Position numbers and translations under genes: made by a program
The notes under the pieces: generated by a model
Seen by the model: the letters and a program-made list of their open reading frames with translations, nothing else
What the model was told of the DNA's origin: nothing
The model's database searches: none
In this document: in pieces, positions 1,184 to 64,000 of the stretch
Layout of the letters: each line of letters starts with the position of its first letter
How positions within the stretch are numbered: position 1 is the stretch's first letter
Assembly: GCF_009914755.1 (NCBI RefSeq)
Contig: NC_060928.1
Reading direction: 5' to 3' (one strand)
Origin: the human T2T-CHM13v2.0 reference genome, Homo sapiens
Length of the DNA stretch: 64,000 nt

Positions 1184-3944
<2,761 letters not shown>

Positions 3945-34784: not shown

Positions 34785-37161
34785 TGATGTGGTTTGGCTG
34801 CGTCCCTACCCAAATGTCATCTTGAATTGTAGTTCCCATAATCCCCACATGTCATGGGAGAAATCTGGTGGGAGGTAATTGAATCATGGGGGCAGGTTTT
34901 TCTTGTGCTGTTATGATAGTGAATAAGTCTCATAAGATCTGATAGTTTTATAGAGGGAAGTTCCCCTGCACACATGCTCTTGCCTGCTGCCATGTAAGAT
35001 GTTACTTTGCTCCTCATTAGCCTTCTAATGTGAGGCCTCCCTAGCCATGTGGGACTGTGAGCTAATTAAACGTCTTTCCTTTATAAATTACCCAGTCTCA
35101 GGTATGTCTTTATTAGCAGCGTGAGAACTGACTAATACAGTAAATTGGTACTGACAGAATGCAGTGCTGCTATAAGGACACCCCAAAATGTGGAATCGAT
35201 GTTGAAATTGGTAACAGGCAGAGGTTGCAACACTTTAGAGGGCTCAGAAGAAGACAGGAAAATGTGGGAAAGATTGGAACTCCCTAGCAACTTGGAGGGC
35301 TCAAAAGACAGGAAGACATGGGAAAGTTAAGAACTTCCTAGAGATTTGTTGAATGGCTTTGACCAAAATGCTGATAGTGATATGGACAATAAAGTCCAGG
35401 CAGAAGTGGTCTCAGATGGAGATGAGAAACTTGTTCGGACCTGGAGTAAACGTGACTCTTGCTATGTTTTAGCAAAGAGACTGGAGGCATTTTGCCCCTG
35501 CCCTAGAGATCTGTGGAACTTTGAACTTGAGAGAGATGATTTAGGCATCTGGCAGAAAAAATTTCTAAGTAGCAAAGTGCTCAAGATGTGACTTGGGCGC
35601 TGTTAAAAGCATTGAGTTTTTTTGTATTGACAAAGGTATGGTTTGGAATTGGAACTTAAGTTTAAAAGAGAGGCAGAGCATAAAAGTTTGAAAAATTTGC
35701 AGCCTGATGATTCAATAGAAAAGAAAAACCCATTTTCTGTGGAGAAATTCAAGTTGGCTCCAGAAATTTGCATAAGTAGTGAGGAGCCAAATGTTAATTG
35801 GCAAGACAATGGGATGGGGAAAATGTCTCAGGGCATGTCAGGGACCTTCACAGCAGCCCCTCCCATCACAGGCCCAGAGGCCTAGGAGGAAAAAATGGTT
35901 TAATGTGCTAGGCCCAGGGCCCCCCTCCTCTGTGCAGCCTTGGTGACCTGCATCCCAGCCACTCCAACTGTGGCTAAAAGCGGCCAAGGTACAGCTCAGG
36001 CCATGGTTTCAGAGGGTGCAAGCCCCAAGTCTTGGCAGCTTACATGAGGTGTTGGGCCTTCAGGTGCACAGAAGTCAAGAATTGAGGTTTGGGAACCTCT
36101 GCCTAGATTTCAGAGGATGTATGGAAATGCCTGGATGTCCAGGCAGAAGTGTGATGCAGGGGCAGGGCCTTCATGGAGAACCTCTGCTAGGGCAGTGTGA
36201 AAGGGAAATGTGGGGTTGAAGCCTCCACACAGAATTCCCACTGAGGCATTGCCTAGTGAAGCTATGAGAAGAGGGCCACCATCCTCCAGACACCAGAATG
36301 GTAGGTCCACGAACAGCTTGCACCGTGTGCCGGGAAAACCCACAGACACTCAATGTCAGCCCGTGAAAGCAGCCAGGGGGAGGTTATACCCTGCAAAGCC
36401 ACAGAGGTGGAGCTGCCCAAGACCATGGGAACCCATCTCTTGCATCAGCATGACCTGGATGTGAGACATAGAGTCAAAGGAGATCATTTTGGAGCTTTAA
36501 GATTTGACTGCCCTGCTGGATTTCAGACTTGCATGGGGCCTGTAGCCCCTTCATTTTGGCCAATTTCTCCCATTTGGAATGGCTGTATTTACCCAATGCC
36601 TGTACCTCCATTGTATCTAGGAAGTAACTAATTTGCTTTTGATTTTACAGGTTCCTAGGCAGAAGGGACTTGCCTTTTCTCAGATAAGACTTTGGACTGT
36701 GGACTTTCAAGTTAATGCTGAGATAAATTAAGACTTTGGGGGACCCTTGGGAAGTCATAATTGGTTTTGAAATGTGAGGACGTAAGACTTGGGAGGGGCC
36801 AGATGGAAATATATTGTTTGGCTGTGCCCCCACCCAAGTCTCATCTTGAATTTTAGCTCCCATAGTCCCCATGCATCATGGGAGGGACCCGGTGGGAGGT
36901 GATTGAGTCATGGTGGATGTGCTGTTCTCATGACAGTCAATAAGTCTCATGAGATTTGATGGTTTTATAAAGGGCAGTTCCCCTGCACATGTGCTCTTGC
37001 CTGCCATAATGTGAGAGGTTACTTTGCCCCTATTCACTGTCTGCTATGATTGTGAGGCCCCCTCAGCCATGCTAAACTATGAGTCAATTCAACCCCCTTT
37101 CTTTCTAAATTACTCAGTTTTTGGTATGTCTTTATTAGCAGTGTGAGAACAGATTAATACA
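34785..37161 (+). mobile_element. Full-length THE1D-like MaLR element: 5' LTR 34785-35139, internal region, 3' LTR about 36810-37161
   Basis: Two LTRs with THE1 internal region; perfect 5-bp TSD CTTAT at 34780-34784 and 37162-37166. Confidence 0.94.
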
Positions 37162-38221
37162 CTTATATTGTCAAATTTTAGGTTTTGCATCAGGACAAAA
37201 TGCTTTATTGCTGGTCCAAAGCTTCTGCATCCCTAATCAACTCCACTGTGTCTAAAGGATTTATATGGTGAGCCTCCTCAATACTTTCTTGCCAGCCTTC
37301 AACAAACTATTATAAATTAGATCTCCATGTGGGCCCAAACTTTAAGGGAAGAATTTTGTTGGGGTTAGAATTTGTTTTATGCCTTCTGCTAAATTTCTTT
37401 TATTCAGACCAATGGAGAATATTAATTTTAATTAGGAAAAAGAATGAATTATAGAATATTCTACATTTAATTACAGTAAAAATATATTAAAACCCTACTT
37501 TCTTACGTGATACTCAAGTAAATGTGACTTAGTTCTTTTTCTCTTGGGATTCACAACTTTGGAGGGGAGATAAATTTATACAAACCTGATACAATGTGAT
37601 AAAGGTCATTAGTGGTTTGTGGAGGAGATCACAGAAAAACAAGTAATTGAGTGGAGTTTTGCAAAAGGAATCATGAAGAAATTCTAGGCCAATGTGACAG
37701 TGTGAGCAAGGGTGTGAAGATTTTGAAAATTCATTTTGTGTTTGAGAGTGCTGTGGAGTCTGGAGTAGTGACCGGGGTTTGGGGGAAAGCAACCAGAAAG
37801 GTAGGTTGGATATTGAATAGCATTAGTAAGAAAAAGCTCCTAGGAATTACTTCAATAAATAGGAAGTAATATTCTTAATTAGACTAATAAGTTTAGAGAG
37901 ATGAATATTTCTAAAAGATTTGAAGTTAGTAGGCTGCCTTAAATTTCTAAAATATTTCCTTTGAAATTGTTATTTACCCTACTAATATGCTTAGATACTC
38001 TATCTTAGCCTAGAAACTGTGTACTATCAAGATTTACAGTCAAATGCTATTATTCCAAATTATATTAAGGCTCTGTTCATTTCATATTCAACAAATGACC
38101 ACCAATTATTCTTTTTCTTGATCTCATTGGAATTTAAAATTTTTTCATGGTATTATATGGAGCAACATTTCTAACACTGTGTTTCATGTAAAAAGCATGT
38201 GGTCATAAGAAATTTGGGAAA

Positions 38222-43418: not shown

Positions 43419-43777
43419 TGTTTTAACCTGTTTTCACACTGCTATAAAGATACTACCTGAGACTGGGTAATATATAAACAAAAGAGGTTAAATTGACTCA
43501 CAGTGCCGCATGGCTTGGGAGGCCTCAGGAAACTTACAATCATGGCGGAAGGTGAAGGAGAAGCATCTTTTTACATGGTGGCAGGAGGGAGAGAGTTCAG
43601 AGGAAACTGCCACTTTTAAAACATCAGATCTCGTGAGAACTCTCTCACTAACACGAGAACAGCATGGGGAAAACCACTCCCATGATCTAATCACCTCCCA
43701 CCAGGTCCCTCACTTGACTTGTGGGGATTACAATTCGAGATGAGATTTGGATGGGGACGCACAGTCAAATCGTATTG
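43419..43777 (-). mobile_element. MSTA solo LTR
   Basis: MSTA-like sequence; 5-bp TSD GCTCC at 43414-43418 and 43778-43782. Confidence 0.85.
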
Positions 43778-61491: not shown

Positions 61492-62229
61492 CCATGGATA
61501 CCATTCATTAGCTTTTATTTCTCACCTTGTTCTATTTACATGGGGGCAGAGAGATGCTATTTATTGAGTAGCTCTTCAAAATCCCAGTTTATTAAATCAT
61601 AGGAAGAGTAACAGTATTTAATGATAAAAGGCACGATTTGTGGAATTTATGTCATGTATGTCATAAACCTGGTTATAGCATGCAATATGGAAACTAAATA
61701 CATTGAACTGAGCTGTCAGCAAAACAAGGAAAATGTAGTGAAAATAACATGATAGTTAAAGGCTTTAACAGACTTCTTTTAGAATAGGATGGTTTTGATA
61801 GCCAGAAACATTAAGCAAAAACATAGAGGAACTGAGTTTCCTTCCAGCAGAAATTTACGTTTTTCTATATTGTCTGTGGAAAATAATCAGTTGTGTGCTT
61901 AATCACAAAGAAAATATTAAAAGCTAAAAAAGAGGGTTTTTATAGCTTACATTTGAGTAGCATAATCCAATAAAATTAGAAGCAAATAATGAATGAGGCT
62001 CTCACCAAAATCTTAACTATGTGAATATAAAGAAACATGCTACTAGAGAATTCTTGAATCAAAGAGGAACTCAAACTGGAAATTATATCAAGAGAGCAAT
62101 AAATAGGAGCACCCTAATTTTGAAAAACAGTGGGAGTCAGAAGAAAATTTTTAGCCGTGACTTCATTTTTAAGGAAGAAAGACCAAACAAAAAAGGCTTT
62201 ACAAAAACTACATTTTTTCCATGCTTTGG

Positions 62230-62881
62230 CTTTATACCTATAAAATCTAGAAACTGTAGAGAAAAATCAAAATAAATAATAAAAGTATTCCTAAATTAAT
62301 ACCTTTTTTCTGTCTAGTAATAAACAATCAAAAATTGATATGGAAAAATATTTCATTCCCAATAGTGATAAAAACCTATTTTAGAAAACATAGAAGTAAA
62401 TATAACAATATAGACACAGGATTATATGAGTAAAATTATAAAAACATATTAAAGTACATTAAAAATATATAAACAAATGGAAATAAATAACATTCTTGGA
62501 CATAAAGACTACATTTAATAGAAATAAATTATCTCAATATTGATACATAGACTTTATGCAACCTCAGTTAGAATCCAAGTTGTTTTGTAGGTTACTGGTG
62601 GTGGCAGGTGCAGTTAAAATCATCTTCAATTTCTAAAAAAGAATAACTATTTGAAGATGTTCAAGAAAAGTTTCTAAAAGAACATATTGGGAAAGTATTG
62701 GTCTTACCAGACAACAAGATGTAGTATAAAACTATAATAATCAGCTTGGTAGAATAAAATAAATATGCCATATCTAGACACCAGTGCACATTAAAAAAAT
62801 TTAATGTATGCCAATGATAGTCATTTAATTTTTTAGGAGACATAGGATTTTAATAAATGGCTCTGGTACAAGTAACCATAC
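62230..62881 (+). mobile_element. Old L1M ORF2 remnant
   Basis: Degenerate 'aacaaatggaaa...', 'tataaaactataataatca', 'taataaatgg'. Confidence 0.6.
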
Positions 62882-64000
62882 TGTATTAGTTTATTTGTAT
62901 AATGCTATGAAAAAACACCCAAGACTGGGTAATATAAAGAAAAGGAGGTTTAATGGGCTTACAGTTCCACACAGCTAGGGAGACCTCACAATCATGGTGG
63001 AAGGTAAAGGAGGAGCAAAGGCACATTTTACGTGGCAGCAGGCAAGAGAGAAGAAGGAGTGCCTAGCAAAGGGGGAAGCCCCTTATAAAACCATTAGATC
63101 TCATGAGAATTTACTGTCATGAGAACACGATGGGGGAAACTGCCCCAAAGACTCAATTGTCTTCACCTAGTCCCTCCCATGACACATGGGGATTAATGGG
63201 AACTATAATTTAAGATGAGATTTGGGTGGGGATACAGCCAAAACATATTATACCACCCCTGACCCCTCCCAAATTTTATGTTTTTACAATTTAAAACACA
63301 ACTATGCCCTTCCAAAAGTCCCCCAAAATCTTAACTTATTCTGGCATTAACTTACAAGTTCAAGTTTAAAGTCTTATTTGGGACAAGCAAGTCCCTTTTG
63401 CCTATGACCCTAGAAAATTAAAAACAAGTTAGTTACTTTCTAGATACAATGGGGTACAAGCATTGGGTAAATACACCCATTCCAAATGGGAGAAATTGGC
63501 CAAAACAAAGGGACTACAGGCCCCATGCAAGTCCAAAATCCAATATGGCAGTTATTAAACTTTAAAGTTTTAAAATCATTTTCTTTGACTTTATGTCTTA
63601 CATTCAGATTACACTGATGCAAGAGGTGGGCTTCCACAGCCTTTGGAAGCTCCACCCCTGTGGCTTTGCAGGGTACAGCCCCCCGCCTGGCTGCTTTCAT
63701 AGGCTGCTTTGAGTGTTTATGGCTTTTTCAGGTGCACAGTGCAAATTGTTGATGGATTTACCATTTTGGGGTCTGGAGCACAGTGGCACTTTTCTCACAG
63801 TTCCACTAGGCAATGCCCCAGTGGGGACTCTGTGTGGTAGTTCCAACTCCATTTCCCTTCTGCACTGCCCTAGCAGAGGTTCTACATGAAGGCTCTGCTC
63901 CTGCAGCAAACTTCTGCCTGGACATCCAGGCATTTCTGCACATTACCTGAAATGTAGTCAGAGGTTTTCAAATTTTAATTCTTTACTTCTGTGCACCTGC
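62882..64000 (-). mobile_element. THE1D-like element (3' LTR about 62882-63250 plus internal region), runs off the window; G-to-A hypermutated
   Basis: Reverse-complement homolog of about 36050-37161 with pervasive plus-strand TC>TT changes. Confidence 0.92.

What the first reader, a model, noticed from the sequence alone, without database searches (positions are those of the whole stretch)
62882..64000. THE1 provirus with an APOBEC3-like G-to-A hypermutation footprint
Seen: aligning the reverse complement of 63561-63619 to the in-window paralog 36443-36501 gives 10 G>A differences in 59 nt (8 in GA context, one GG, one GC) against 4 other differences (catcagcatGacctgGatgtGagacataGagtcaaagGaGatcattttGGaGctttaaG versus catcagtgtAatctgAatgtAagacataAagtcaaagAaAatgattttAAaActttaaA). 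The same plus-strand TC>TT pattern runs through the LTR and internal region (e.g. 'aaattttatgtttttac', 'caagtttaaagtcttatttg', 'ggatttaccattttgggg'). These are non-CpG and strand-polarised. Established: APOBEC3 enzymes deaminate minus-strand retroviral cDNA, and TC-preferring members give GA>AA. Inference: this is a fossil of innate restriction of a MaLR element in an ancestral anthropoid germline. Edited ERVs are known as a class; I cannot tell whether this copy has been reported.
Basis: partly seen in the sequence, partly recalled or inferred. Interest (0 to 1): 0.8.

Follow-up and report, generated by a model that had tools for sequence, protein, structure and literature searches.

The report
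Deaminase-hypermutated ancient MaLR retrotransposon copy
One old LTR retrotransposon copy in this human chr4 window carries about 44 extra G-to-A changes on its sense strand, almost all at GpA sites, which is the known scar of antiviral cytidine deaminases acting during reverse transcription; this is a clean example of a known phenomenon.

Summary
The element is a MaLR-type LTR retrotransposon on the minus strand. Its 3' LTR lies at about 62882-63252 and its internal part runs from 63253 to 64519, past the window end.

I aligned it with 31 other genomic copies.
- Against the others it averages 91.7 G>A versus 45.0 A>G, an asymmetry of +46.7. The other copies range from -18.7 to +16.2.
- C>T versus T>C is balanced, at +2.8.
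- Excluding CpG, 43 of 92 conserved GpA guanines read A (47%), against 207 of 2835 (7.3%) in the other copies.
- GC, GG and GT contexts lie near background, and the mirror TC>TT is 2 of 54.
- The nearest copies keep G at 56-66 of the 70 sites, and no genomic copy shares the edits.
- A younger L1 inserted in the element, an old repeat about 1 kb away, and two in-window paralogs show no such bias.

Best reading (0.85): a TC-preferring APOBEC3-type deaminase edited the minus-strand cDNA before integration.

Not testable here: orthologues, the immediate flanks, and subfamily naming against Dfam. The LTR-sharing test was inconclusive. Hypermutated human ERV copies are already catalogued as a class, so this is a new member of a known kind.

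The parts
62882..63252 (-). 3' LTR of the hypermutated MaLR copy (about 371 nt)
   Evidence: It matches the LTRs of full-length copies. It ends in ...CA at 62882 in the sense orientation. 6 of 14 conserved GpA guanines read A here.
63254..63272 (-). Purine-rich tract just upstream of the 3' LTR (polypurine-tract position); it fixes the sense orientation
   Evidence: Read directly from the sequence. The same arrangement occurs in the full-length paralog at about 36790-36812. The function is inferred from retroelement architecture.
63253..64000 (-). Internal region of the element, continuing outside the window to about 64519, where a younger L1 interrupts it
   Evidence: The alignment to the paralog (35532-37161) spans 64516-62882 at 76.9%. 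38 of 79 conserved GpA guanines of the internal part read A.
63561..63619 (-).
   Evidence: Recounted exactly.
34786..37162 (+). Full-length, unedited same-family copy with two LTRs and a perfect 5-bp target-site duplication (CTTAT); used as comparator 'W36'
   Evidence: Its G>A asymmetry is -7.6 and its C>T asymmetry -2.2.
1186..3895 (+). Second same-family copy in the window; comparator 'W02'
   Evidence: Its G>A asymmetry is +1.5 and its C>T asymmetry -3.6.

Best explanation
This is a dead-on-arrival MaLR-type LTR retrotransposon copy. I infer the following sequence of events. While its RNA was being reverse-transcribed in a germline cell of an ancestral primate, a cytidine deaminase that prefers 5'-TC (APOBEC3-type, not the CC-preferring A3G type) reached the single-stranded minus-strand cDNA. 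It converted roughly half of the TC cytosines to uracil. Plus-strand synthesis fixed these as sense-strand GA>AA, and the edited DNA still integrated and became fixed.

Shown here: the size, strand polarity, dinucleotide context and copy-specificity of the G>A excess; the absence of the bias in neighbouring repeats; and the absence of progeny copies.

Inferred: the enzyme family, the timing before integration, and the host lineage and age.
For: - Pairwise, without any reference sequence: mean G>A 91.7 versus A>G 45.0 against 31 copies (asymmetry +46.7; others -18.7 to +16.2), with C>T 49.1 versus T>C 46.3.
- Private changes: 70 G>A against 15-35 in the other copies, with all other classes within their range.
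- Context with CpG excluded: GA 43/92, GC 5/80, GG 16/119, GT 5/56. The 31 other copies pooled give 7.3%, 7.5%, 6.9% and 9.2%.
- 6 of the 16 GG-context sites have the following G edited too (site list), so the GG excess is largely secondary.
- A threshold-free pairwise version gives GA 45.3% in this copy against 5.3-18.4% in the others.
- The mirror test, sense TC>TT, is 2/54 against 6.9% in the others.
- Edits cover both the internal part (38/79) and the 3' LTR (6/14).
- Copy-specific: the nearest copies keep G at 56-66 of 70 sites. The best non-self genomic match is 80-82% for the whole query and 84% for the most edited stretch (40 scored of 15,773 and of 5,047 candidates).
- Controls without the bias: the L1 insert (C>T 19.3 versus T>C 16.1, rank 7 of 30); an old repeat at about 67906-68300 (8.9 versus 12.8, rank 19 of 21); and in-window paralogs W36 and W02.
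- From the literature, passages read: human ERVs show positive-strand G>A bias in GG and GA contexts, and some copies are hypermutated (PMC6955324).
Against: - Confinement to the element could not be tested. The immediate flanks have no usable paralogs, and dinucleotide composition is confounded by their A-richness.
- The LTR-sharing test is inconclusive. Among 8 conserved GpA sites covered by both LTRs, 4 are G in both, 2 are A only in the 3' LTR, 1 is A in both and 1 is A only in the 5' LTR.
- The target-site duplication of this copy is not intact: only a 3-nt GTA abuts both ends. That the two LTRs belong to one insertion therefore rests on order, orientation and reciprocal best identity (83.4% versus 79.9% for the next).
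- The rise in editing towards the polypurine tract that retroviral models predict is not significant (Mann-Whitney p = 0.12; post hoc cuts p = 0.012 to 0.81).
- No orthologues were available, so the age and the pre-integration timing are inferred.
- The comparison copies are the 31 most similar of thousands, not a random sample.
Confidence: 0.85

Rival explanations
1. Post-integration clustered deamination of chromosomal single-stranded DNA (kataegis-like). One possible trigger is resection at the break that accompanied the L1 insertion and the roughly 0.5-kb deletion at about 64520.
For: - The edited tract abuts an L1 insertion with loss of part of the element.
- Left of such a break, the strand ending 3' at the break is the window plus strand, which is the strand carrying TC>TT (inference).
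- Edited GpA sites prefer a 5' T: TGA 16/21 versus 27/71 (p = 0.003). That corresponds to TCA on the deaminated strand, which by recall resembles A3A/A3B.
- Confinement to the element is untested.
Against: - 47% of target sites are edited evenly over 1.64 kb. By recall this is far denser than genomic clusters and typical of retroviral hypermutants.
- There is no decay with distance from the L1 junction: 12/27 in the first 600 nt versus 26/52 beyond.
- On the other side of the L1, 0 of 13 TC sites show the opposite-strand pattern expected of two-sided resection.
- The L1 insert itself is unbiased, as is the old repeat about 1 kb away.
- The affected strand is the one reverse transcription predicts, a 1-in-2 coincidence under this rival.
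Confidence: 0.07
2. Reverse-transcriptase misincorporation under a skewed dNTP pool (low dCTP). This is the pre-APOBEC explanation of GpA-context G>A hypermutation, and it needs no deaminase.
For: It predicts the same strand and, by recall of the older HIV literature, the same GpA bias. Sequence alone cannot separate it from deamination.
Against: Established knowledge (recalled, and reflected in the reviews read) attributes retroviral and ERV G>A hypermutation to APOBEC3 enzymes. Nothing in this copy specifically calls for this alternative.
Confidence: 0.04
3. Not an event in this copy at all. The A alleles would be diagnostic of a rare sub-lineage, or come from misalignment, regional mutation bias or assembly error.
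For: This copy shares a rare ~80-nt internal segment with only 3 of the 31 compared copies. The comparison set is small relative to the family.
Against: - Those 3 copies keep G at 63, 66 and 56 of the 70 sites.
- Only G>A is inflated, and only at GpA; A>G, C>T, T>C and transversions are ordinary.
- No genomic copy is closer than 80-84%.
- Neighbouring repeats are unbiased.
- The result holds without any column threshold.
Confidence: 0.03

Closest known systems
APOBEC3-hypermutated HERV-K(HML-2) proviruses (Lee, Malim & Bieniasz 2008; Armitage et al. 2008). I saw these only as cited in the review PMC3576619 (passages).
   Same: An individual endogenous copy carries a large, strand-specific, context-specific G>A excess relative to its relatives. 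It is read as minus-strand cDNA deamination before integration.
   Different: The review describes those as mainly A3G-type (GG context), in a young class II ERV with coding genes. This copy has a GpA (TC-type) context and is a much older, non-autonomous class III (MaLR) element. Its LTR-LTR K2P distance is 0.19.
Genome-wide catalogues of edited or hypermutated LTR elements: Ito, Gifford & Sato 2020 (PMC6955324; section 7 and supplements searched) and Knisbacher & Levanon 2016 (PMC4866542; passages).
   Same: The criterion is the same: positive-strand G>A bias per copy, with GG or GA context in human ERVs. Ito et al. flag individual human ERV copies as hypermutated (their Fig. 4D legend).
   Different: - Neither text names THE1 or MaLR copies. 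In PMC6955324, 'MaLR' occurs only as a column of genome percentages.
- PMC4866542 states that in primates editing is predominantly in ERVK, with the remainder in ERV1 'and not ERVL'.
- File 1 of its supplements could not be searched, so this copy or family may be listed there.
Germline clustered mutations attributed to APOBEC3 on chromosomal DNA (PMC4864454, PMC5287224; search listing and abstract starts only).
   Same: Strand-coordinated C>T in an APOBEC context in inherited DNA.
   Different: Those are sparse clusters in ordinary genomic DNA. This case is 43 of 92 target sites over a 1.64-kb retroelement, on its sense-strand polarity.

Membership tests
APOBEC-type hypermutated endogenous retroelement copy | Excess of sense-strand G>A over A>G relative to related copies | tested here: met
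   91.7 versus 45.0 on average against 31 copies, an outlier by about 30 sites over the next copy. 70 private G>A against 15-35.
APOBEC-type hypermutated endogenous retroelement copy | Strand polarity: no matching C>T excess on the sense strand | tested here: met
   C>T 49.1 versus T>C 46.3. Sense TC>TT is 2/54 against 6.9% in the others.
APOBEC-type hypermutated endogenous retroelement copy | Dinucleotide preference (GA or GG), outside CpG | tested here: met
   GA 43/92 against GC 5/80, GG 16/119 and GT 5/56. OR 7.7, p = 1.2e-12, CpG excluded.
APOBEC-type hypermutated endogenous retroelement copy | Edits private to the copy, not inherited from a master lineage | tested here: met
   0-6 of 31 copies carry A per site, and the nearest copies keep G at 56-66 of 70 sites. 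The best genomic match is 80-84%. The sample is limited to the 40 scored candidates per search.
APOBEC-type hypermutated endogenous retroelement copy | Edits confined to the element; host flanks unaffected | tested here: inconclusive
   The L1 insert and an old repeat about 1 kb away are unbiased. The immediate flanks have no paralogs, and composition is uninformative.
APOBEC-type hypermutated endogenous retroelement copy | LTR edits shared by both LTRs (made before LTR duplication) | tested here: inconclusive
   Only 8 GpA sites are covered by both LTRs: 1 shared A, 2 in the 3' LTR only, 1 in the 5' LTR only, 4 unedited.
APOBEC-type hypermutated endogenous retroelement copy | Editing gradient rising towards the polypurine tract | tested here: inconclusive
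   Mann-Whitney p = 0.12. Post hoc cuts give 15/42 versus 23/37 (p = 0.025) or 12/27 versus 26/52 (p = 0.81).
APOBEC-type hypermutated endogenous retroelement copy | The same A alleles in all orthologous loci that carry the insertion | not testable with these tools
   No other primate genome is held.
MaLR / THE1-type LTR retrotransposon | About 350-370-nt LTRs with TG...CA ends flanking a ~1.6-kb internal region, with a purine tract before the 3' LTR | tested here: met
   3' LTR, purine tract and internal region are read. They are homologous along their whole length to full-length copies such as 34786-37162. The 5' LTR survives only as a fragment beyond an L1.
MaLR / THE1-type LTR retrotransposon | 5-bp target-site duplication | tested here: not met
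   For this copy only a 3-nt GTA abuts both ends. The paralog at 34786-37162 has a perfect CTTAT. Decay or a small indel over tens of millions of years is a sufficient explanation.
MaLR / THE1-type LTR retrotransposon | Match to the curated THE1 (versus MST or other) family models | not testable with these tools
   No Dfam or Repbase library is at hand. The name THE1 rests on my recall of the LTR sequence and on mean pairwise divergence among copies (p = 0.188).

The most novel reading that the evidence does not exclude
This copy would be a datable record that a TC-preferring (non-A3G-type) deaminase had access to ERV-L/MaLR reverse-transcription complexes in the primate germline tens of millions of years ago. 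That is a class of element for which the large primate screen I could read reports no editing ('and not ERVL', PMC4866542). The TGA (minus-strand TCA) preference would hint at an A3A/A3B-like rather than A3F-like specificity at that time. A family-wide survey using the same copy-by-copy statistic could then time the appearance of TC-type versus CC-type APOBEC3 activity against old, high-copy MaLR families.
Probability: 0.4. Interest if true: 0.45.

Novelty: new member of a known kind. Interest (0 to 1): 0.3.

Why it matters
This is a very clean single-locus fossil of deaminase-mediated restriction in an old, non-autonomous class III LTR element. About half of all target sites are edited, the strand polarity is complete, and there are no progeny.

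The mechanism is textbook, and hypermutated human ERV copies are already catalogued as a class, so the copy changes no concept.

Its modest value has two parts. First, edited MaLR/ERV-L elements are barely documented in primates in the literature I could search. Second, old high-copy families like this one could date TC-type APOBEC3 activity if surveyed systematically.

The locus has no annotated gene or regulatory element, so no functional consequence is indicated.

Tried and rejected
- **Left flank control.** 61600-62878 had only 2 candidates in the genome, one of them itself. Blastn of both immediate flanks against the window and all held loci gave one 61-nt hit and nothing else. No flank polarity test was possible.
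- **Dinucleotide composition as a substitute.** On the plus strand this copy has the lowest TC/GA ratio of the 32 copies (0.92; median 1.52). The flanks are intrinsically A-rich (AA far above TT), so their low TC/GA is not interpretable.
- **LTR-LTR sharing of edits.** Too few sites.
- **Gradient towards the polypurine tract.** Not significant.
- **Target-site duplication of this copy.** Not recognisable.
- **ADAR editing.** Rejected, because it gives A>G, and A>G is ordinary here at 10 private sites.
- **C>U editing of the sense RNA.** Rejected, because it would give sense C>T, which is also ordinary.
- **CpG decay.** Rejected, because CpG sites were excluded and the excess is at GpA.
- **Literature.** Five searches found no paper naming hypermutated THE1/MaLR copies. 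Carmi et al. 2011 (recalled) is not in the library. File 1 of the supplements of PMC4866542 could not be searched. Figures are not held. Prior listing of this copy therefore cannot be excluded.
- **Earlier findings of this scan.** Not open to the session.
- **Further genomic copies.** None of the 31 other copies shows the signature; their GpA rates are 0.00-0.17.

Full report
**What is there.**

The window is human chr4. From 62882 to the window end lies the 3' part of an LTR retrotransposon on the minus strand.
- A roughly 371-nt LTR occupies 62882-63252.
- A purine-rich tract at 63254-63272 lies directly upstream of that LTR in the sense orientation.
- The internal region starts at 63253.

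With the next 10 kb fetched, the internal region continues to about 64519. There a younger L1 of about 2.1 kb is inserted. Its copies are 93-95% identical to it. Beyond the L1, at about 66641-66867, lies a 227-nt fragment of the 5' LTR. About 0.5 kb of the element, the rest of the 5' LTR and the first ~390 nt of the internal part, is missing at the L1 junction.

The two LTR pieces are each other's best match: 196/235 = 83.4%, against 79.9% for the next best. No intact target-site duplication is left; only a 3-nt GTA abuts both ends.

The window holds two more copies of the family on the plus strand. One, at 34786-37162, is full-length with a perfect 5-bp duplication, CTTAT.

By my recall of the LTR sequence this is a THE1/MST-type MaLR. 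No repeat library was available to test the name or the subfamily.

**The observation.**

One paralog cannot tell which copy changed. I therefore collected the 29 best-matching loci from the same genome, out of 40 scored of 15,773 first-look candidates. I added the two in-window copies. I aligned the 1,639-nt sense strand of the target with these 31 copies.

I built no family consensus. The primary test is purely pairwise.
- Averaged over the 31 partners, the target shows G>A 91.7 versus A>G 45.0, but C>T 49.1 versus T>C 46.3.
- When each of the other 31 copies is treated as the target, the G>A asymmetry ranges from -18.7 to +16.2.
- Counting sites where a copy differs from a base carried by at least 80% of the others, the target has 70 G>A. 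The others have 15-35 (mean 26.5 by my sum).
- Its A>G (10), C>T (22), T>C (14) and transversions (36) all fall within the others' ranges.

The copy therefore carries about 44 extra G>A changes and nothing else unusual.

**Context and polarity.**

| Context (CpG excluded) | This copy | 31 other copies pooled |
|---|---|---|
| GpA | 43/92 (47%) | 207/2835 (7.3%) |
| GpC | 5/80 | 7.5% |
| GpG | 16/119 | 6.9% |
| GpT | 5/56 | 9.2% |

- Fisher tests give OR 7.7 (p = 1.2e-12) for GA versus non-GA within the copy, and OR 11 (p = 3e-23) for the copy versus the others at GpA.
- Six of the 16 GG-context sites are followed by a G that is itself edited. The twofold GG excess (p = 0.01) is therefore mostly secondary to GA editing.
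- A version with no column threshold gives 45.3% at GpA for this copy, against 5.3-18.4% for the others.
- The mirror pattern on the sense strand, TC>TT, is 2/54.
- Within GpA, a 5' T is favoured: 16/21 versus 27/71 (p = 0.003). The +2 base does not matter.
- Edits are found throughout: 38/79 in the internal part and 6/14 in the 3' LTR.

**Is it private to this copy, and is it regional?**

At the 70 sites, 0-6 of the 31 copies carry A. The three copies that share a rare ~80-nt internal segment with the target carry G at 63, 66 and 56 of the sites.

No copy in the genome resembles the target more than 80-82% overall, or 84% over the most edited 386 nt. No progeny or sister copy with the same edits was found among the candidates scored.

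Controls in window plus-strand orientation show no bias:
- The L1 insert has C>T 19.3 versus T>C 16.1, rank 7 of 30.
- An old repeat at about 67906-68300, roughly 80% identical to its copies, has 8.9 versus 12.8, rank 19 of 21.
- The two in-window paralogs are unbiased on both strands.

The immediate flanks could not be polarised.

**Mechanism.**

Sense-strand GA>AA with complete strand polarity, at about half of all target sites over the whole element, is the established signature of TC-preferring APOBEC3 enzymes deaminating minus-strand retroviral cDNA. By the passages read, human ERVs show GG>AG and GA>AA, attributed to A3G and to A3D/F/H respectively, and some copies are hypermutated (PMC6955324).

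I therefore read this as editing during reverse transcription, followed by integration of the damaged cDNA. The enzyme cannot be named from a fossil. The TGA preference corresponds to minus-strand TCA, which by recall is more A3A/A3B-like than A3F-like, and APOBEC1-type enzymes also prefer TC (recall).

The LTR-LTR distance is K2P 0.19 over 235 sites. That corresponds to about 44 My at 2.2e-9 per site per year, or about 96 My at 1e-9 (rates recalled). It is close to the mean pairwise distance among the other copies (p = 0.188). The insertion is therefore about as old as the family's spread. 'Anthropoid ancestor' is plausible but untested.

**Tests that did not decide.**

- *Sharing of LTR edits.* Only 8 GpA sites are covered by both LTRs: 1 shared, 2 in the 3' LTR only, 1 in the 5' LTR only, 4 unedited. 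The 5' LTR fragment has 2/9 GpA sites reading A, against 1/26 in other G contexts. Edits confined to the 3' LTR are compatible with reverse transcription, because the original minus-strand LTR is displaced again late in synthesis. That is my inference, not a result.
- *Gradient towards the purine tract.* A trend only.

**Rivals.**

The main rival is chromosomal clustered deamination after integration, perhaps at the break that brought in the L1. It would predict decay with distance from the junction, opposite-strand edits on the far side, and no respect for element borders.
- Decay is not seen: 12/27 near the junction versus 26/52 beyond.
- Opposite-strand edits on the far side are 0/13.
- Respect for the element borders is untested.

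I give this rival 0.07. I give dNTP-pool-driven reverse-transcriptase error 0.04, and sub-lineage, alignment or regional artefacts 0.03.

**Novelty.**

Hypermutated endogenous retrovirus copies are a known class.
- HERV-K(HML-2) examples are cited in PMC3576619.
- Per-copy detection across human ERVs is reported in PMC6955324.
- A 123-genome screen is reported in PMC4866542.

In the five searches run I found no paper naming an edited THE1/MaLR copy. PMC4866542 says that primate editing lies in ERVK and ERV1 'and not ERVL'. The figures and one supplement were not readable, however.

I rate this a new member of a known kind, of modest interest.

Noticed in passing
window 34786-37162 (+): A full-length same-family element with both LTRs (34786-35139 and about 36813-37162), a purine tract before the 3' LTR and a perfect 5-bp target-site duplication, CTTAT. 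It shows no G>A bias.
   Followed up: partly
L031 525-2640 (window 64525-66640, outside the window): A younger L1 3' portion, 93-95% identical to its genomic copies, is inserted in the minus-strand element. About 0.5 kb of the host element is lost at the junction. The nearest genomic copy lies only about 19 kb away on the same chromosome (G000:C4:91099550-91101625).
   Followed up: partly
sense positions ~60-140 of the element (window ~64380-64460, outside the window); window ~35590-35670 in the paralog: An ~80-nt internal segment is present in the target, in the in-window paralog at 34786-37162 and in loci L016 and L028. It is absent from most of the other 28 copies compared. This indel marks a sub-lineage of the family.
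   Followed up: no
locus L004 (G000:C5:127640191-127641305): It has the second-highest G>A asymmetry among the 32 copies (+16.2), but no significant GpA enrichment was seen. It could be a lightly edited copy or just noise.
   Followed up: no
window 43440-43776 (+) and 1186-1545: Further LTRs of the same family lie in the window: a solo-looking LTR at 43440-43776 (67.7% to the target LTR) and the 5' LTR of the copy ending at 3895. There are three to four MaLR insertions within 64 kb.
   Followed up: no
L031 3906-4300 (window ~67906-68300, outside the window): An old interspersed repeat, about 80% identical to many genomic copies and L1-like by eye, was used as a regional control. It shows no strand bias.
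   Followed up: yes
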